From: Eledone cirrhosa
Taxonomy: Eukaryota
Direction of reading: 5' to 3'
DNA: 64,000 nucleotides
NCBI GenBank assembly: GCA_964016885.1
Contig: OZ024743.1
Coordinates: 165,478,001-165,542,000, forward strand
How positions within the stretch are numbered: the stretch's first letter is position 1; the number at the start of each line of letters is the position of its first letter. Both the position numbers and the translations under genes were made by a program. The notes under the pieces were generated by a model, which did no database searches, was not told where the DNA came from, and saw nothing but the letters and a program-made list of their open reading frames with translations. This document shows, piece after piece, positions 616 to 63,362 of the stretch.

Positions 616-1598
616 TACACGGCTCGGAAAGATCCCTTTCTTTGAGCTATTTAATTATAAAATACTATTTTCAGTTTCTAACTTAATCTATAATATTCTC
701 GGCTCCATAGGTAGAGCCAAATTTAGTCTCATAAACCCGGCTGCTATTTTTAGCGGAATGAGAAGCGCTAGGCCCTGTATCATGTGCTTTTATATCAGCA
801 TATCGTTCAGTCTTCTTAGATCCTTTGGAGTAAAATGACGAATTTCCTGGATACCGGCAGAAGATCACAGGAATGGTGGCTTTCACTTAATAATTCTTGC
901 GGAACAGATTTAGATCTGTCCGGGTATCAAAGGCAGTTGCCCGATGTAGGTTTGTAATTTTTATTGATTTATTACTTTAAATCGAGACAGGCAAACCATA
1001 TTGTTTTAAATTAGTATTTTTTAAACTTAGCTAATTCGGACATCTGCAATTGGAACACATGTATACTTGATCGGTGTTCATCCCTCTCATATATTCAGTT
1101 GTATTACACGGCTCAGAAATATCACCTTTTTGAGCTATTTAATTGCAAAACACTATTTTGTGTTTGTAACTTAATGTAAGATATACTCGGCCCTATAAGT
1201 AGAGCTAAATTTAGTCTCATGAACCCGGCTGCTATATTTAGCGGCATAAGTATGAGACGCGCTAGAACCTATAACATGTGCTTTTATATCAGCATATCGT
1301 TCAGTCTACTTAGTTCCTTTGGAGTGAAATATACGAATTCCGGGATACCCGCAGAAAAGGGCAGGAAAGGTGGCTTTCACTTAATAATTTTTGCGAAACA
1401 GATTTAGGTCTGTCTGGGTATCAAAGGCAGTTGCCCGATATAGGTTTGTTATTTTTATTGATTTATCACTTTAAATCGAGACAGGTAGACCATAGTGTTT
1501 TAAATTAGAATCTTTCAACCCAGCTAACATGGTCATTTGCAATTGGAACACATGTAGACTTGTATCCGTGTTCATTCCTATCATATATTCATTTGTAT

Positions 1599-1601
<3 letters not shown>
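616..1601. repeat. Tandem dimer of a ~489-bp non-coding unit, ending in (TA)n
   Basis: CACGGCTC occurs at 618 and 1107, and the two diverged units align along their length. Confidence 0.9.
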
Positions 1602-1645
<44 letters not shown>

Positions 1646-40740: not shown

Positions 40741-41077
40741 CATATATATCGCTATTTCAGAGCATTTAATCCAATTTCTAATTTCTGCCGGACCGGCAAC
40801 CGCTCTTTCAAACCAGTTCCTGTACACAGCTAAGTATTCTATAAGTCTCTAGCTGTGTCATTCTCGATAAAAGCACTGGATATGTAATCCTGAAGATTTC
40901 TAATAAGAATGAAACGCGTAGGTTACTTCCCTTGCTTTTATCGAGACTCTAATTGTAATACGTGACGTATTCTATTCTATAGCGATTAGGTCTTCAAAAT
41001 GTTTATTATAAACATACAGAATATTTTCGAATATTCTATGTCTATCTTCACATATATATCGCTATTTCAGAGCATTT

Positions 41078-41085
<8 letters not shown>
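40741..41085 (+). mobile_element. Retrozyme-like element family A, copy 1 (310-bp monomer plus 35-bp redundancy)
   Basis: There is a direct repeat at 40741 and 41051, an internal HHR and a (TA)n 3' flank. It is homologous to 55235-55672. Confidence 0.75.
40884..40926 (+). ncRNA. Canonical type I hammerhead ribozyme (GUA site)
   Basis: The motif is GTAATC-CTGAAGA-TTTCT(AATA)AGAAT-GAAAC-GC-GTA-GGTTAC, with a 14-bp stem I extension at 40862-40875/40933-40946. Confidence 0.9.
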
Positions 41086-41161
<76 letters not shown>

Positions 41162-41367: not shown

Positions 41368-42081
<714 letters not shown>

Positions 42082-44544: not shown

Positions 44545-47500
44545 GAGTAGGATGTTTGAATGCACGTGGCCTGGGCTCAACTTGGAAGCAAGCAAAGCTT
44601 CTAAATGACCCCAGATCACGTAATGGTTATCTGTGAGACTCGGATCAGCGTCGTGCGGCAGCTGGCCCCTACCTTCGATGACTTTGAGGTGCATGCATCT
44701 CTCTGTCAACCTGGAGGTGGGGGGGGGGTTGTCGTACTGCTGGAAAAACACCTGGGTCTCGCCTTACAGGTTGTTCACTCGGACCCGGAGGGTCGTTTGT
44801 TGGTGCTAGACGTTGGCAGTAGTGAAGGTGCGGCCTTGAGACTGGTTGCCGTCTACTCCCCTTTCGGAGCTGAACGGCCCGACTTCTTCCAGCGTTTGGA
44901 GACTTTTCTGGGAACGTCGCGTTCCCTGCTTCTAGCGGGGGATTGGAATGACATCCTAGATGCACGTTGGGACTATGCAGGAGCATGTCCTAATAGAGGG
45001 GGGTGTAACAGCCTCAAGGGGTTACTCGACCGTTTTAACTTGGTCGATAGATATCGACTAGATTTTCCAACTGTGCCAACCTGGACTTGGACGAACCACA
45101 GTGGTCAATCTAGATCGTACTTAGATAGATTCTTAGTTAGAAGTAGGGATAGGGACATATTAAGCTGTCCAGAAATGCTCACGGTTGGCTATACGGATCA
45201 CAAATTAGTGACCTGCGTAGTCAATCTCGAGAAAACACATAAACAGGGTCCCGGTTACTGGAAACTTAATTTGTCTTTACCGGCAAAAGAGACTTACAGA
45301 AACTGGATTAGCAGATTAGTTAAGGAGAGGTTGACGGGTCCAATCGTCAACAACCGATGGTGAGCATCTCTCAAAAGAGAGATTAGAACAGAATCAATAA
45401 GTTATAGCAAGATGTTAGCTGCCGATAGGAATAGAAACGAGAAAGAATTAACAGGTAAATTAGAAGAGGCAATCAAGAGCGAAGATGTGGCCAGAGTGCT
45501 GGCATCGAGGACGGTCTTGAACCAGGCTGCGTCATTCGAAGTAAAATACGTGCTCTAGGTAATGAGGGGGCCAAAGCCGTTGGCTGGGCCCGCGTGACAG
45601 AAGCTAAGAGTGTAAATCGATCCACCATCCGGTCTTTGCAAGACGAGGATGGACGGGTGATCCGGGAGCCTAAGCAGATGTGCGAGGCCTTTCAAAGGCA
45701 CTTTGCCCGATTATTCGGGGGAGGCGAGGGGCCGGGCGGGGACGTGGATTTCGGTCCATACCTCGACGGCCTGCCGCGTCTCTCGAGCGAAGAGGCAGAG
45801 TCCTGCGAGGGACCAATCTCGGCTGATGAGATCGGGGATGCGCTGAGCCAATGCAGCAGACGCAAATCTCCAGGTCTCGATGGTATACCTTACGAACTTT
45901 ATTTAGCAATGCCGGTCTTCTTCTCCGAACTCCTCGAAGCGGTCTACTGCAATTGGCAGCAGAACGGGAGAATTCCTTGTTCTGTAGCCAAGGGCGTAGT
46001 CTCGATGGTGAGGAAGGACGAGAACAAGGGAGATAGTATAAATAATTTTCGGCCCATAACCCTGCTAAACACAGAGTTAAAGATTTTGGCCAAGGTGTTA
46101 GCAAAGAGGTTGGCGCTTGTCGTGGGTGGCCTGGTGGGAGATGCGCAGACATGTGCTATCCCATCCAGGTCCATTCACGATAACCTCCACCTCATGCGAT
46201 ACATCATAGAGAGGGTTGGAAACAAACCCGGATTCGGTGGGGCCCTGATCAACTTGGATCAGTCTAAGGCCTTCGATAGGGTCGACCATGGTTACCTGGA
46301 TGCGGTGCTAGCGGCGGCTGGGTTCGGTCCTGTTTTCAGAGGCTGGATCACTGCCTTACATAGCAACCACATCTGTTCTAGGATCAAGGTGAACGGCTAC
46401 CTTTCGAAGCCGTTCGAAATCACACGATCCATTCGACAGGGGTGCCCTCTCTCCTCCCTTCTGTACGCATTGACTCTCGAGCCTTTACTGAGGAAGTTGG
46501 AGTTGTTGCAGGGTATCCCCCTGGAACCAGGATTGAGCAAAGCGGTGTCGGCCTACGCCGATGACGTAACAGTAATGGTATCGACCGACTCGGAGATCGA
46601 GGCGATCGGTACCTTACTGGAGGATTACGAAAGGTTGTCAGGAGCGAAACTGAACCGGGAAAAATCCATCGGGCTGCAACTCGGAACGTGGAGAGGCAGA
46701 CCGATGCCTCCCGACGGTGTCGTCGGACACTGGACGGAGGGCCCGGTGAAGTTGCTTGGGGTCTGGTTTGGACCGGACCTCCAGGTGGAAAAGAACTGGG
46801 ACGAGGTTACGAACAAGGTGTTTGCACTAACCCAGAAATGGGCCAAGTGTAAGCTGTCCCTAAAAGGTCGGGCGGAGGTGGCGAACATTTACATAGCGTC
46901 CGTCACTTACTACCGCCTGACTGTCGTGCCTTGCCCTAAGGAAACACTCCCCACCACGGAACGCATGCTCTTCCAATTTCTTTGGAAGAAGCGCCCTCCT
47001 ATGGTGAGAAGATCCATCTGCTGCCAACAACCTTCGAAAGGAGGGCTGGGGATGCCGTGGTTGATGAAGCGTAGGCACGCATTAAGGCTACGGCACCTAC
47101 AGGTATTCCTCACTGGTCAACCGGTGTGGGCTCCGTTCGTGAAACGAGCCTTTCCGAGACTCGTCTCGCTCACCGAGCTGCAGTCCTGGGTCAAGCAAAG
47201 ATCCGGAAAACTGGGAGACTGGCACACTGAGTGTGCCCAGGCGCTCAGGGCTCTCTGGCAAGCGGGCCAGGCCATCGGTGGAGAATCCACCTCATCATTC
47301 TATAGAGGGCTGGTGGCTAGCAGGGGCGATGACACCCTTGGAGAATCGCTGGACATGGAAGAGGACGAACTGGCCAGCCTGTTCGGTAGGACTTTCGGCC
47401 CGGGACCAATGGACAACTTCCAGAAGTCACTAGCCTGGCAGTGCTACCGGGGGGCTCTACCCGTTCGAGAGAGGCTCTACAGACACGGGCGCCGAAAAAG

Positions 47501-47920
47501 ATTTGTCCTAGATGCGTGCGTCACGAAGAAACCGTTGCGCACGCATTGGTGCAATGTCCGGGCGTGGCTGATCTGTGGGGCTACGCCGAACGACTGCTGT
47601 CGCGGGTGGCGCCGATTCGATTGACCGCCGAGTCCGTGATGACAATCAAGCCGCCTCCCCTCTTCACAAAGGAAGCAAAGGCGGTTTTTCTGTGCGTAAT
47701 AGCCATGTTGAAAGAGGTTGTTTGGTGGACACGATTGAAAGGTCTGAGGTCAGGCAACTTCCTCTCTGGCCATAGTCTGGTCTACTTCTTCCGATATCAC
47801 TTCGGAAGAAGGATAAGAATGGAGAGAGAGGTGCTTGGCCACAGGCAGTTTTATGAAAGGTGGGTGATAGTGGCGAGAATGGCTCGTGTAAATGGGCCTT
47901 CTCTGTATACCATCCTGTAG
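44532..47920 (+). pseudogene. Tx1 ORF2 (APE endonuclease + reverse transcriptase), disrupted
   Basis: It has MDVLRVGCLNARGL, GDWN, YLDR, KSPGLDG, FRPITLLN, LDQSKAFD, RQGCPLS, YADD and a C-terminal CPRC..H..C, spread over several frames. Confidence 0.92.
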
Positions 47921-50800: not shown

Positions 50801-54815
<4,015 letters not shown>

Positions 54816-55200
54816 ATGTACGTATGCATGTGTGTATGATTGTATGTATGTATATGTATACACCCACACCTTTCACACCATTGCTTCTATTTCTTGTCGT
54901 TTCTGTTGTTCTTGTAACTGTTGTCGTAGTTGACGTTGTCCCTATTTTCATTTTCTTCGATTACTTTTGCTTTTCTTTTATCTCCCTAGGGAATTCGTTG
55001 ACAAGCTTCTTTTATATATTTCCTTCGTTTTCTTCATTCAAATGCATTCACACTGGCTGTCTCTAAGACGTACAAATGTGGCTGATAAAACGTACCTAAG
55101 TAAATAGCCTTCCAGCTCCCCTAACGCCCCAAAGCTTCAAACGCCCCCCCCCCCCCCCCACGTCACTTGCTCCCCCCCCCCCCCCCCCCTGGAGCTCCGA

Positions 55201-55672
55201 ATTGAAAATTAGAATTGGTGCTCTGAAATAGCGATGTTGAAAAAAAACGTAAGTGACATAGTCACCATTTTAAAATAATAGCGCAAGGTCTTCAAATGGT
55301 TTTAATTAAGCATTCAGTATATTGCCAAATATACTATACATATATTCATGTATACATCGCTATTTCGGAGCAACAATCCTAATTTTCAATTTTTACTGGA
55401 CCGGCAATCGCTCTGTATAATCAGTTCCTGATTATTACTGGAATTCTATAAGAATCTAGCATCTATAATTTTCAACAAACACCGGCGAGTGCTAAGCTCT
55501 GATGATCACCAACAGTATGATGAAACAGATCTGTCAGCTTATCTCCCTTTGTTTGTTGAAAAAAGAAGTAAGTGACTTAGTCATTACTTTAAAATAATAA
55601 TGCAAAGTCTTCAAATTACTTTTAATTAAACATACAGTATATTGCCAAATATACTATACATATATTCATGTA
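55201..55672 (+). mobile_element. Retrozyme-like element family A, copy 2 (319-bp monomer, ~110-bp redundancy, 5' inverted piece)
   Basis: GTAAGTGAC occurs at 55249 and 55568. 55201-55236 is an inverted copy of 55355-55390. It has an internal HHR. Confidence 0.78.
55493..55541 (+). ncRNA. Canonical type I hammerhead ribozyme (GUC site, cleavage predicted after 55535)
   Basis: The motif is TAAGCT-CTGATGA-TCA(CCAACAGTA)TGAT-GAAACAG(AT)CTGTC-AGCTTA, with a 13-bp extension at 55469-55481/55550-55562. Confidence 0.93.
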
Positions 55673-57627: not shown

Positions 57628-60600
57628 TGTTTCTTTATTAGCCCAAAAGAAGGGGACAAATACAAAGGGGGAAGTTTACATACAGTAAAAACGTGTAAAA
57701 TATTATCACAAATGTAATTTAAAAATTAGTCGATTTTCCCCAATAGGGGGAGACATTTCATATGGGTAACACATAACCTCGAAAAAAAAATTTGCAACTC
57801 TCATCTCCAGGAGTACGAAGAGTTTGTACTCCTTTCCTCTCATTCTCTTTTTCCTCAACCTACAGGCTGATATAGAGAGAAGGCCCATTCACTCGGGCCA
57901 TTCTCGCCACTTTCACCCACCTTTCATAAAACTTGCTGGGGTACAGCACCTCTCTCTCCATCCTGATTCTTCTTCCAAAGTGGTATTTGAAAAAAAGAAT
58001 CAGTTGTTGGCCGGAGAGAAAGGTGTCTGACCTCAGCCCTTTCAACCTTGTCCACCATACAACATCTTTCGCCATAGATATCACACAAAGGAAAACCGCC
58101 TCTCCTTCGTTTTTGAAGGAGGGTGGCGGTTTGATCATGACAATGGCCTCGGTGGTCAACCGGATTGGTCCCACCCGCGACAATAGTCGTTCTACATAGT
58201 CCCACAGGTCGGTGACGCCCGGGCATTGTATGAATGCATGCGCGACGGTTTCTTCGTCTCGCACGCACCTCGGACAGATCTTTTTTGCAGGGTCCCTGCC
58301 CGGACACCCATGTCTGTAGAACTTGTATCGAACTGGTAGAGCTCCTCGGTAGCACTGCCAGGACAGAGACTTTTGGGAGTTGTCCATCGGTCCCGGGCGG
58401 AAGGTCCTACCGAACAGACTGGCCAGTTCGGCTTCCTCTACGCCCAGAGTTTCACCGAGCACGTCGTCGCACTTGCTGCGGATCAACCCTCTATAGAATG
58501 ACGAAGTGGAGTCTCCACTGATCGCCGGGTCCACCTGCCAGAGGGCTGTGAGCGCCTGAGCACATTCGATGTGCCAGTCGCCCATTTTCCTCGGTCTTTG
58601 CTTGACCCAGGACTGCAGCTCGGTCAGCGAGACGAGTCATGGGAAGGCTCGCCTCACGAACGGGGCCCACGCCGGTTGTCCGGTGAGGAATACGTAGAGA
58701 TGCCGCAGCCTGAGCGCGTGTTTGTGCATCGTCAGCCACGGATCCCCAGCCCTCCGTTGGAAGGGCGTTGGCAGCAGATGGATCTTCTCACCAAAGGAGC
58801 CCGCCTCTTCCAAAGGAATTGGAAGAGCGCGCGCACCATTTTGGCGAGCGTTTTGGCTGGACAAGGCACGACGGTCAAGCGGTCGTAGATGGCGGACGCT
58901 ATAAAACTGTTTGCCACCTCCGCTCGACCTTTCAAAGATAGTTTGCACTCGGCCCACTTCTGGGTGAGTGCAAACACCTTGGCCGACACCTCGTTCCAGT
59001 TCTTCTCCACCTGGAGGTCTGGACCAAACCAGACCCCGAGCAGCTTTACTGGCCCTTCCTTCCAGCGTCCGACGACGCCATCGGAAGGCATCGCTTTGCC
59101 TCTCCACGATCCGAATTGCAAACCGATGGACTTGTCCCGGTTCAACTTCGCTCCTGTGAACCTTTCGTATTCCTTCAGTAAGGTGCCAACTTCCTCGATT
59201 TGCGAGGCACTCGACACCATTACTGTAACGTCGTCGGCGTAGGCCGACGCCGCTTTCCGCAGTCCCGGTTCCAGAGGGATGCCCTGCAATAGCTCCAACT
59301 TCCGCAGTAGTGGATCGAGAGTCAATACGTACAAAATGGAGGAGAGAGGGCATCCCTGTCGAATGGATCGCGTGATATGGAACGGCTCCGAGAGGTAGCC
59401 GTTCACCTTAACCCTTGAGCAGATGTTGCTGTTATGCATTGCAGCAATCCAGCCCCTGAACACGGGTCCGAAGCCTGCCGCCTCGAGCACCGCATCCAGG
59501 TAACGATGGTCAAACCTATCGAAAGCCTTAGACTAATCCAAGTTGATCAGAGCCCCACCGAAGCTGGGTTTACACCCTACCCTCTCTATGATGTATCGCA
59601 TGAGGTGGAGGTTGTCGTGTATGGACCTGGTCGGGATTGCGCATGTCTGCGCTTCTCCCACCAGGTTCTCGACGACAAGCGCCAGCCTCTTTGCCAACAC
59701 CTTGGCCAAAATCTGTAATTCTGTGTTTAGCAGAGTTATGGGCCGGAAGTTGCCTATCTCATCCCCCTTATTCTCGTCCTTCCTGACTAGTGTGACTACG
59801 CCCCCGGTCACAGAACTGGGAATTCTCCCGTTCTGTTGCCAGTTGCAGTAGACCGCTTCCAGGAGACCGGAGCATAAGTCCGGCATTGCTACGTAAAATT
59901 CGTAGGGTAGACCGTCGAGACCTGGAGATTTGCGTTTGCCGCATTGGCTCAGCGCATCCGCTATCTCAACGGCTGAGTCGCGGTAGGCCGTCGAGGTATG
60001 GACCGAAATCCATAGCCCCTCCCGGCGCGCCGCCCTGCCCGAACAGCTGAGCAAAGTGCCGCTAAAAGGCCGCACACATCTGCTTCAGCTCACGTATCAC
60101 GCATCCGTTTTGGTCCTACAAAGACCGAATCGTGGACTTGGTGCCACTTTTTGCCTCCGTCACTCGGGCCCAACTAACAGCTTTGGCTCCCTCGTTTCCC
60201 AGAGCACGTATTTTGCTTCTGACAACGCAGCCCTCATGCTTTGCGTCGAAGAAAAGGCCGTTCTCGTTGCTAGCACGCTGGCTACGTTGCCACTTCTAAT
60301 TGCCTCTTCTACTTTATCTACCAGTTCTTTCTCGGTTCTATTTCTATCTAACGCTAATCTTTACTAAAAACTAACGAGTCTAATCTAACTTCCCTCTTGA
60401 GAGAGTACCACCATCTGTTGTTGACAATGGCCCCTGTCAAGTGCTAATCCGTCTACTGTAGGCTTTGCATGTCGGTAACGACAAGTTCAGCTTCCAGTAG
60501 CCGGGTCCTTGTCTATGGGTTCTATCAAGGTTGACCATGCAGGTCACTAGTTTGTGATCTGAATAGGCAACCATGAACATTTGTGGACAGCTTAACATGT

Positions 60601-63362
60601 CTCTATCCTAATTTATAACTAGAACCCTATCTAGGTACGATCTAGATGTTCCGCTAAGATTAGTCCACGTCCACAGTGGCACAGTCGGAAAATCTAGTCG
60701 ATATCTATCGGCCAGGTCAAATCGGCCGATTAACTGTTTGAGGATGTTACACCCCGCTTTATCGGGACATGCTCCCACATAGTCCCAACGTGCATCTAGG
60801 ATTCCATTCCAGTCCCCCACTAAAAGCAAGGAGCGGGATCTTCCCAGAAAAGTCTCTAGACGTTTGAAGAAGTCTGGCCGCGGTGTCCCGGATGCGGCCA
60901 CCAGCCTGAAGGCTCCACCTTCACTACCGTCAACGTCTAGGACCACCAGTCGACCCTCCGGGTCCAGATGTACCGTCTGTGTTACGAGGCCCAGGTGTTT
61001 CCGCAGCAAAACGGCAACTCCGCCCCCACCACCCGGCTGAGAGAGAGATGCGTAGATCTCAAAGTCATCGAAGATGGGGGCCAGCTGTCGCTCGCTGTGG
61101 ATCCTGGACTCGCAAATGGCTACTACATCCATACTGTGCGACCTGAGGTCGTTTAAGAGTTTGCCCTGCTTCCAGGACATCCTCAGACCGCGTACATTCA
61201 CAGACCCAACTCTTATATTGGCCATGTTGGTTCTGAAAAGTTAAAAGAGGAGAAGAAAACACTCACCTCTTCGTCTCCCGGGGATCAGGCCGCACGGTTT
61301 CCATGGGGGTGTTAGAGGAGTTGTCTGGGTGGGTGGTGGTTTCCGGTGGGGTGGGGACGGAGATGTTTGGTGGGGTGGGGGTGTCTGGGGTGGGTGGGTG
61401 TGGGGTGAGGGTGGGGAAACTTTTTAAAAGGACGCGTTAATGGGTTTAACACAAGGATTACCCACGTGCTTAGGAAAGTTTTCCTTTAAAGACTTATAGG
61501 TGTCCGTAGGGACCCTAATCAACTTTAAATTAGGTTTGTCTACACAGTTCGAAAAAGTTTTCCCTTCGGTTTTCACCGAAGGGTCGTTGGAGATGACCTC
61601 CATTAAAGTTTTGTTTTTACTGTTTATGTATGTGTAATGTTCTTCTTGTGTTGTGGTGGTTTTTGTCTGTTGTTCTTGTGGGAGCTTTCGTTTTGTTGTA
61701 GGTGTTTGTGTTTGGAGTGATGTCGTGGTTTTGTTTTCGGGACGGGGGGGTTTTGTTTGTAATGTTTGTGTTGTTTGTGTTGGTGGTTGTATGTTTGTAG
61801 TGAAGTTTGTTGTGTTTTTGTTCTTGTGGTGTCTTTTCTTCTTTCTTTTCGAACGGAGAGGCTCTCCCTCATCATCACTTGGTGATGATGTGGGGGCCTC
61901 GTCCGTTGTGGTGTCTGTGTTATTTGGAAGGGGTATATTTTGGGGAGCTGTTGTGTTTGTGGGTGTTTTTGCAGTGGTTTTAGGTGGAGTGGGGTTGGGT
62001 GGGACTGTGCTTGCAGGTTAGTTTGTTGTTCTTGTTTTGGTTGTGTTTGCGTGTTGTTGTTGTTGTTGTTGTGGTGGTGGTGGTGGTGGTTGTGTTGTTG
62101 TTTTGGGTGTTGGCAGTAGTACCTCTTTTTTTTTTGTTAACTGAGGACAGTAAGCCTTCAGGTGACCACTGCTTAAACAGTGGTAACATGAAGACCGCCT
62201 ACTCTCAACAGAAATGTTTATGTGTGAAATTCCATCCAGAGGCACACGTTGGGGTATTTTAGCTATCCGTTCTGGCCTCATTTGGACCAGAACTTCCATG
62301 CTTGTACCATTGAATGTGCCTCTGGAGGACTTTCCCACCGAAATGATGGTGTCTTCGTCGAAATCGATGAAGCCAGTTAGAATCCACCAGACGTTTACAT
62401 TTGGTGCAATGTTCAAAATTTTTATTTTTTGAGTTCTTTTTCCCATATATGTGGGGAAAAAGGTGTAAAGGGGGGGGGGGGCACAATCGGCGATACAGAA
62501 TATTTTTGTGCTGTCAATTGGTCTTTCAACAACACCGAAATGCTTCCAAAAAGTTTCCCATTTTGGATGAAGGCAATATCCTTCATGGAATTCTTCAGAA
62601 CCAGTTCAATATCGTTTTGGGATAACTGAACTCGTTTTTTCGACACATTTGAAACCGTCCTAAAAATTACTGTTTTTAGAACAGTTTCTCTGCGTAACTG
62701 TTGAGGAGAAGTGATGCTGAAAGCACCACTCTCACCAAAAGTTACGTACTGTTTTGCATCGCTTAACATTTCCCTAGCATTGGAAATGTCAAGGTATGTG
62801 AACAGTTCCGTCTTTTGGACGGTTTGAGCAAAAGAAATCTTTTCCTTGTTCGTGGAGTTGTTCGTGTTGCTGTTGTTGTTGGTGGTGTTGTTGTTATCAT
62901 TGTTGCTGTTGTTGTTCTTATTGTCATTATTGTTGTTGTTGTTGTTGTTGTTCTGGTTGGTGTTGTTTATATTTTGCATGTTATTGGTGTTTGTGTTAGT
63001 GTTGATGTTACAATCAACGTCCGACATCGTGTTCCCAAAACTGACGACATTTTCGATGTCTTTCAATGAGGTGGTGAGAGGAGGTGACTGCGAGCTTAAC
63101 ACTCTTACCGCATCTCCACCACTTCTAGTTATGAACGCAGCGTTCATGACTGAATGCAAGGTTTGTTTACACTTTTTTTTTCACCGGCGAAATTTTTTTC
63201 AAAACGAAAATTTCACCCCAGAGTGGGGTGAAGATGACTTGACCCACCGTCTGAAAGTCCAGACGTGGGTCAAGCTATAAAATAGTAATAAATTTAACAA
63301 TACATTTTTTATCTCTTACTTAGAAAATCAACAAAAACTTACCAGCGAACTGGCACACGTCT
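57628..63362 (-). mobile_element. Near-full-length Tx1-clade LINE in (GATA)n, degenerate
   Basis: ORF1 fragments (CYHCLSSGHLKAYC) and ORF2 from 61225 (APE, RT YADD, C-terminus) are present. (GATA)n arrays lie at 57595-57627 and 63364-63478. Confidence 0.95.

What the first reader, a model, noticed from the sequence alone, without database searches (positions are those of the whole stretch)
40741..41085. Second copy of the same family with covarying ribozyme stems
Seen: a 310-bp monomer colinear with the 55.2-55.7 kb unit, sharing ATCGCTATTTC, GGACCGGCAA, CAGTTCCTG, ATTCTATAAG and GGTCTTCAAA. The helices change sequence but keep pairing. Stem I is GTAATC/GGTTAC vs TAAGCT/AGCTTA, the extension is TCTCGATAAAAGCA/TGCTTTTATCGAGA vs TTTTCAACAAACA/TGTTTGTTGAAAA, and a distal hairpin is GAATATT/AATATTC vs AGTATATT/AATATACT. 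Inference: selection acts on RNA structure, so this is a functional replicating RNA family with subfamilies.
Basis: partly seen in the sequence, partly recalled or inferred. Interest (0 to 1): 0.85.

Follow-up and report, generated by a model that had tools for sequence, protein, structure and literature searches.

The report
Hammerhead retrozyme with co-evolving ribozyme helices
This is one copy of a young, protein-free jumping repeat (about 18,000 units) whose predicted self-cutting RNA keeps its fold, including one pair in the catalytic core, across seven diverged subfamilies, and which is likely pasted into AT microsatellites by a Penelope-type retrotransposon enzyme; it is a known kind of element with an unusually clear evolutionary record.

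Summary
Observation confirmed. Window 40748-41057 is a 310-bp non-coding unit with a type I hammerhead motif, 65% identical to the 55.4-kb unit. Family A has 18,043 exact ribozyme-core matches in a 3.0-Gb animal genome.

Covariation holds across 51 copies in 7 subfamilies: 92.5% of cells pair against 81.1% shuffled, 0/500. A tree-aware test gives 13 double changes against 0.9 expected. The core pair C3-G8 switched to U3-A8 twice, and helix III stays palindromic, which points to cleavage as a dimer.

Insertions carry Penelope-like element (PLE) marks: (AT)n targets, two fixed 3' ends 28 nt apart, and head-to-head arms. In 38 of 38 two-armed loci exactly one arm ends at the main site. Both arms share one ribozyme haplotype in 11 of 11 loci, which fits copying from one, probably circular, RNA.

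Verdict: a new family of the known non-LTR retrozymes (non-autonomous PLE derivatives). Cleavage, circles and the helper PLE are not shown, and RNA-to-RNA replication has no support. This scan already noted the two-armed layout on other DNA, including this genome.

The parts
40741..41085 (+). Whole insertion: single arm of about 1.1 units of subfamily A, 5'-truncated, 3' end at the tail site
   Evidence: L001
40748..41057 (+). 310-bp unit, GC 0.345, no ORF over 59 codons even as a multimer
40862..40875 (+). 5' arm of the helix that extends stem I
40884..40926 (+). Type I hammerhead motif. Stem I 40884-40889/40921-40926; CUGAAGA 40890-40896; U10.1-U11.1 mismatch 40897/40910; stem II 40898-40901/40906-40909; GAAA 40911-40914; palindromic helix III CGCG 40915-40918; U16.1 40919; A17 40920, predicted cut 3' of it
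   Evidence: sequence
40933..40946 (+). 3' arm of the extension helix
41019..41036 (+). Distal hairpin, about 20 nt upstream of the main 3' end
41048..41057 (+). Main 3' end site of the family (unit positions 300-310), inferred first reverse-transcription start
   Evidence: 46 of 94 arm ends
41058..41085 (+). 28-nt tail (start of the next unit), inferred second reverse-transcription start
   Evidence: 44 of 94 arm ends at positions 20-36
41084..41159 (.). (AT)38 microsatellite target
55200..55236 (-). Subfamily B1 copy: short inverted arm ending at the tail site
   Evidence: L031
55235..55675 (+). Subfamily B1 copy: plus arm of about 1.4 units; hammerhead 55493-55541, predicted cut after C55535; 3-nt insertion in stem II

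Best explanation
This is a non-coding, hammerhead-bearing tandem repeat (a non-LTR retrozyme) that is likely moved by the reverse transcriptase and GIY-YIG endonuclease of a Penelope-like element. Shown: the unit, its copy number, the covarying ribozyme fold, the (AT)n targets, the two fixed 3' ends and the shared haplotype of the two arms. Inferred cycle: (1) arrays are transcribed. (2) Neighbouring hammerheads pair through their palindromic helix III and cut 3' of unit position 173, releasing 310-nt monomers. (3) Monomers are ligated into circles. (4) A PLE protein, probably a dimer, nicks both strands of an (AT)n tract and primes one strand at unit position 310 and the other 28 nt further on, on the same RNA. 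(5) Each RT runs round the circle for a variable distance, and the two 5'-truncated cDNAs are joined head to head. Selection for cleavage and ligation keeps the helices paired while their sequence turns over. The flanks, which hold the RT start sites and probably protein or promoter signals, are kept at sequence level.
For: Copy number: 18,125 exact matches to a shared 16-mer and 18,043 to the A ribozyme core, controls 0. Covariation: RNAalifold, given no structure, recovers the extension, stems I and II and the distal hairpin, and 22 of 29 pairs show two-sided changes. Named structure: 92.5% paired versus 81.1%, covariation score 0.423 versus 0.227, 0/500 shuffles, slid controls 34-44% paired. 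Tree-aware test: 13 internal branches with a pair-keeping double change (10 on a tree built without the helix columns) versus 0.9, 0/1000. C3-G8/U3-A8: 29 CG, 21 UA, 1 other of 51; 43 CG, 54 UA, 3 CA, 0 UG in the first 100 of 1,205 pattern hits (hand count); 2 switches on the tree. Helix III: CGCG, CAGATCTG, CAGCTG and CAGAGCTCTG are perfect palindromes; CAGACTG and CAGAGATCTG are near-perfect. PLE marks: 90 of 94 arm ends fall at two sites and 83 of 94 have AT-rich flanks. 38 of 54 A loci are two-armed; all 38 have exactly one arm at the main end, and 35 have the other at the tail. B loci: 42 end/tail, 6 end/end, 0 tail/tail, 18 other. One template: 9 haplotypes in 16 unselected loci, 0 of 101 units depart from their locus type, 11 of 11 arm pairs match where the chance per pair is 0.15. 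Private variants are fixed in all full units of both arms in L188 and L181. 5' ends are scattered (1 of 94 near the cut site, 3.3 expected) and 60 of 94 arms cross the cut site at least twice. An intact young PLE family with the same anatomy is present (69 scored copies, 98-100% identical).
Against: No cleavage, expression or circle was shown. No autonomous PLE with homologous ends was found in 80 PLE loci or in one low-power pattern search. The active PLE has a tail of about 55 nt, not 28. In vitro, an anole PLE uses uncleaved RNA and needs no ribozyme activity (PMC11167929), so uncleaved multimers could be the template. Only 1 of 9 Xenopus retrozyme dimers cleaved in vitro. The count of 'further pair types' is below the shuffled mean (43 versus 48.9). 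The 10.1-11.1 pair is unpaired in 26 of 51 copies. 7 of 19 arrays with 5 or more full units repeat private variants, so some arrays are not plain copies of one monomer.
Confidence: 0.8

Rival explanations
1. The same PLE-driven element, but the template is an uncleaved linear multimeric transcript, or monomers joined by template jumps. The ribozyme then acts at another step, such as freeing RNA from read-through transcripts, and no circle is needed.
For: Anole PLE inserts from unprocessed RNA in vitro (PMC11167929). A homogeneous source array would give homogeneous daughters. Some arrays hold mixed monomer types (L096, L081, L063).
Against: New variants fixed in every unit of both arms (L188, L181) and 9 homogeneous haplotypes in 16 loci need a one-monomer bottleneck followed by re-expansion. 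Arms of up to 23 units persist. 5' ends do not cluster at the cut site.
Confidence: 0.2
2. A PLE-derived satellite whose arrays grow mainly by DNA-level unequal crossover or slippage, the ribozyme being an inherited relic.
For: Proposed for vertebrate retrozymes (bioRxiv 10.64898/2026.07.22.740005). Block-like repeats of private variants in 7 of 19 long arrays.
Against: Arrays are bounded by PLE-type ends with fractional 5' units, and inverted arms share haplotypes. The youngest long arrays are almost free of variants. Repeated compensatory changes, including the core pair, need selection on the RNA.
Confidence: 0.07
3. A viroid-like RNA that also replicates RNA-to-RNA, with only occasional reverse transcription into the genome.
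For: Variation within family A is concentrated in the 43-nt ribozyme: 8 of 9 shared variable sites (p about 1e-6) and 6 of 7 sites at 5% or more in an independent data set. Four-gamete patterns occur among these sites (read by hand). Such RNA steps were suggested for PLE hammerheads (PMC4209133).
Against: No hammerhead-like core on the minus strand of unit A (unit B gives one loose match, not followed up). The fold is branched, not rod-like. RNA-level mutation would hit the whole circle, so selection or recombination explains the local excess as well.
Confidence: 0.07

Closest known systems
Metazoan non-LTR retrozymes (Cervera and de la Pena 2020, PMC7229834; parts 2 and 4 of 6 and passages read)
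   Same: 150-450 bp low-GC tandem units, each with a type I hammerhead and no ORF. The axolotl forms have a palindromic helix III or a U-U mismatch at the base of stem II and work as dimers. Circles copied by an RT were proposed, with PLEs as the candidate.
   Different: In the parts read, insertions are not described as two inverted arms with fixed 3' ends in (AT)n. Cleavage and circles were shown there and are untested here. Seven subfamilies with two core-pair switches are resolved here.
Retrozymes as non-autonomous PLE derivatives (Li, Clavereau and Pollet 2026, bioRxiv 10.64898/2026.07.22.740005; parts 1-3 of 5 read, supplements closed)
   Same: Same claim of PLE origin and co-occurrence with PLEs.
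   Different: There, 24 of 57 Xenopus families match known TEs, 21 of the 22 matched being PLEs; here no homologous autonomous parent was found. Here the support is insertion anatomy, and the host is an invertebrate.
EN+ Penelope-like elements (Craig et al. 2021, PMC8557442, passages; Frangieh et al. 2024, PMC11167929, parts 1-2 of 4; Cervera and de la Pena 2014, PMC4209133, passages)
   Same: 5'-truncated tandem plus inverted arms, a 30-40 bp tail often at only one end, microsatellite or AT-rich targets, two internal RT start sites, both target strands extended, palindromic helix III.
   Different: No RT or endonuclease ORF, and the tail is 28 nt. The strict pairing of one start site per arm and the shared haplotype are counted here. 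In vitro no strand difference in start sites was seen.
Natural hammerhead core variants U3-A8 and U10.1-U11.1 (Perreault et al. 2011, PMC3088659, passages)
   Same: Both variants are known in nature, and the U3-A8 covariant was already shown active in vitro.
   Different: Here both states of the 3-8 pair alternate within one repeat lineage, each in hundreds of copies or more.

Membership tests
Non-LTR retrozyme | Type I hammerhead motif in every unit | tested here: met
Non-LTR retrozyme | Head-to-tail units of 150-450 bp with GC under 50% | tested here: met
   310 bp, GC 0.345; arrays up to 23+8 units
Non-LTR retrozyme | No protein coded | tested here: met
   longest stop-to-stop frame 59 codons in a tetramer
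Non-LTR retrozyme | Self-cleavage of the transcript | not testable with these tools
   only motif and covariation evidence
Non-LTR retrozyme | Expressed as linear and circular monomers | not testable with these tools
   no run on record as RNA was listed
Penelope-like element (autonomous) | ORF with RT and GIY-YIG endonuclease | tested here: not met
PLE-mobilised non-autonomous element | Partial tandems with an inverted 5'-truncated arm | tested here: met
   38 of 54 A loci; 66 head-to-head junctions in 93 B loci
PLE-mobilised non-autonomous element | Two 3' ends about 30-40 nt apart, tail at one end | tested here: met
   90 of 94 ends at two sites 28 nt apart
PLE-mobilised non-autonomous element | AT-rich or microsatellite target | tested here: met
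   83 of 94 flanks with at least 11 of 12 A/T
PLE-mobilised non-autonomous element | Sequence shared with the pLTR of an autonomous PLE | tested here: inconclusive
   none in 80 PLE loci, out of 10,596 GIY-YIG candidates
Viroid-like RNA replicon | Ribozyme on both polarities or rod-like fold; RNA-to-RNA copying | tested here: not met
   no antisense core in unit A; branched circle fold; replication itself untestable here

The most novel reading that the evidence does not exclude
A long-lived protein-free RNA parasite that has outlived sequence ties to any parent PLE. A PLE dimer copies one circular monomer from two start sites at once, one per target strand. Each insertion is thus a clonal record of a single ribozyme genotype, and the genome holds a natural selection series for a dimeric hammerhead, with recurrent tuning changes and two independent C3-G8/U3-A8 core switches.
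Probability: 0.5. Interest if true: 0.7.

Novelty: new member of a known kind. Interest (0 to 1): 0.45.

Why it matters
How Penelope-like elements make tandem-plus-inverted insertions, and whether retrozyme circles are the template, are open questions stated in the papers read (PMC8557442, PMC7229834, PMC11167929). This family supplies a 310-nt candidate substrate, fixed start sites, and built-in haplotype tags that show both arms come from one RNA type, so the model can be tested directly. The subfamily series is also a natural mutational scan of a hammerhead. The class, the PLE link and the core variants are already in print, which limits the surprise.

Tried and rejected
Rfam at gathering threshold: no match in the window.

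RNA evidence: no RNA holder listed. Three runs of other organisms each hold one or two low-depth contigs, near-identical to family A. They may be carry-over, so they are not used as cross-species evidence.

Partner search: BLAST of A and B against 50 GIY-YIG loci and a family profile against 80 PLE loci found only neighbouring copies and weak matches to unrelated hammerhead repeats. The active 775-aa PLE has the same layout but no end homology. A pattern meant to catch a different continuation after the tail gave 37 hits with no recurring new sequence, at a power of perhaps 15%. A PLE domain accession recalled from memory was not in the library, so GIY-YIG was used instead.

Idea that 5' ends mark the cleavage site: rejected. 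Idea that repeated variants show exact multimeric circles: not supported, because the spacing is irregular. The LINE ORFs of the window were not taken as partner, since the end pattern is PLE-like.

Rows dropped: A1 holds 51 of 76 copies. The 76 were thinned from 131 loci by removing duplicates and most near-identical A and B1 copies; the cut to 51 removed partial copies and further near-identical ones. The 94 arms include two small internal pieces of L177. 38 of the 54 A loci were chosen as best hits to the window copy, and 16 came from the first 100 pattern hits.

Full report
OBSERVATION. All quoted motifs and helix arms are at the stated coordinates. The 310-bp unit (40748-41057) aligns end to end with the 55.36-55.67 kb unit at 213 of 330 columns, score 203.5 against at most 53 in 300 shuffles. 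The unit holds a type I hammerhead motif: stem I GTAATC/GGTTAC, CUGAAGA, a U-U mismatch at 10.1-11.1, a 4-bp stem II, GAAA, a CGCG helix III and GUA at 40918-40920. A 28-nt repeat of the unit start follows, then (AT)38. Rfam misses it. No frame exceeds 59 codons.

FAMILY. The genome is 3.0 Gb and rich in microsatellites. Earlier scan notes call it a probable octopus; I did not test this. A 16-mer shared by both window units has 18,125 exact matches and the A ribozyme core has 18,043, with reversed controls at 0. A copies are 99-100% identical and lie in arrays of up to 23+8 units. B1 copies are about 91% identical to the window's B copy and short. Pattern searches brought in further subfamilies, and a tree of 76 copies resolves seven groups.

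COVARIATION. On a structure-blind alignment of 51 real copies, RNAalifold finds the extension helix, stems I and II, the distal hairpin and one more hairpin; 22 of 29 pairs show two-sided changes. For the named 33-pair structure, 92.5% of cells pair (shuffled 81.1, 0/500), 259 cells change on both sides (99.5) and the score is 0.423 (0.227). Slid controls pair at 34-44%. One measure, further pair types, is below the shuffled mean. That shuffle ignores kinship, so I counted internal branches where both partners change and stay paired: 13 on the full tree and 10 on a tree built without the helix columns, against 0.9, 0 of 1000.

The core positions U4, G5, A6 and U16.1 never vary. N7 and H17 vary freely, as the consensus allows. 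C3-G8 alternates with U3-A8: 29/21/1 in the alignment, and 43 CG, 54 UA, 3 CA, 0 UG in the first 100 of 1,205 genome hits (counted by hand; copies are not independent). The tree needs two switches. This covariant is known and active (PMC3088659). Helix III changes length from 4 to 10 nt but stays palindromic or nearly so. Four of six such sequences have no stable hairpin, while all six form duplexes of -7 to -20 kcal/mol, as expected of dimeric hammerheads (PMC4209133, PMC7229834).

The ribozyme region is the least conserved part in sequence. 24 of 89 positions share a majority letter in all groups, against 130 of 221 in the flanks (p 4e-7). Within A, 8 of 9 shared variable sites fall in the 43-nt ribozyme, and an independent data set agrees, 6 of 7 (it may be the source sample). 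One A lineage (L180) differs mostly outside it.

INSERTION ANATOMY. In 54 A loci (94 arms), 46 3' ends lie at unit positions 300-310, 44 at 20-36 and 4 elsewhere; 83 run into AT-rich DNA. The 5' ends are scattered (uniformity p 0.10; 1 near the cut site), and 60 arms cross the cut site at least twice. 38 loci have two head-to-head arms. Every one has exactly one arm at the main end; the other arm is at the tail in 35 and at positions 37, 54 or 73 in 3. B loci agree: 42 end/tail, 6 end/end, 0 tail/tail, 18 other. These are published PLE marks: inverted 5'-truncated arms, a tail often at one end, microsatellite targets (PMC8557442), and two internal RT starts with both strands extended (PMC11167929).

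Among 16 unselected loci there are 9 ribozyme haplotypes. None of 101 units departs from its locus type, and 11 of 11 arm pairs match. Private variants are fixed in all full units of both arms in L188 and L181. The simplest reading is one monomeric template copied round and round from two starts. Against a pure version of this, 7 of 19 long arrays repeat private variants irregularly. All seven are of the window's haplotype, which also carries more private changes, so later DNA-level duplication is likely.

PARTNER. The genome has 10,596 GIY-YIG candidates. One young family has an intact 775-aa RT plus GIY-YIG frame (69 scored copies, 98-100% identical), its own hammerhead with the same U-U mismatch and a palindromic helix III, two 3' ends into (AT)n, and one end type per arm in the three inverted pairs seen. 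Its tail is about 55 nt and its ends are not homologous to this family. It is a candidate, not a shown partner.

COMPARISON. The element works like, and meets the testable features of, an animal non-LTR retrozyme (PMC7229834), a class now argued to be non-autonomous PLE derivatives (bioRxiv 10.64898/2026.07.22.740005). It is not an autonomous PLE and fails the viroid-like tests. Seven paper searches listed no description of this family, nor a count of the one-start-per-arm rule or of core covariation within a retrozyme lineage; subscription papers are not covered. Earlier notes of this scan reached the same class and the two-armed single-template idea on other DNA; I saw them after my own counts.

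VERDICT. A real feature and a new member of a known kind; interest 0.45. Cleavage, circles and the helper enzyme remain inferred.

Noticed in passing
window 41676-41725 (-): A different hammerhead repeat (core at 41713, palindromic CTAG helix III) lies 600 bp downstream, with inverted repeats around it. Relatives occur in L121 and L137, and it matches this family's profile weakly (E 0.0013).
   Followed up: partly
window 28719 (-) and 28748 (+): A head-to-head pair of hammerhead motifs with the U3-A8 core in an AT microsatellite. The same motif lies downstream of PLE ORFs in L127, L128, L132, L136 and L140, so it is probably a truncated PLE end.
   Followed up: partly
L277-L306 (e.g. L299 1084-3408): Young intact PLE family with a 775-aa RT plus GIY-YIG frame, a 4.2-kb tandem period, a Cys motif between RT and endonuclease, and apparent coding sequence upstream in another frame.
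   Followed up: partly
L061, L063, L073, L076, L081, L088, L096: Private variants recur within arrays at spacings of 1 to 10 units, not strictly periodic. A few are shared between loci (unit positions 52, 118, 237). Later duplication or mixed templates are both possible.
   Followed up: partly
L198, L210: Copies at the base of one U3-A8 clade carry C3 with a non-G at position 8, a possible intermediate of the core switch.
   Followed up: no
L136 7495-7705, L138 4620-4826, L132 683-810: A further short hammerhead repeat in fold-back layout, with a stem II nearly identical to family A but a long helix III.
   Followed up: partly
window 44605-47917, 51231-54302, 57863-61240: Three broken LINE-type elements (endonuclease, RT, zinc finger).
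   Followed up: no
window 616-1602: A 494-bp two-copy tandem ending in an AT microsatellite; no hammerhead core was found there by the scans.
   Followed up: no
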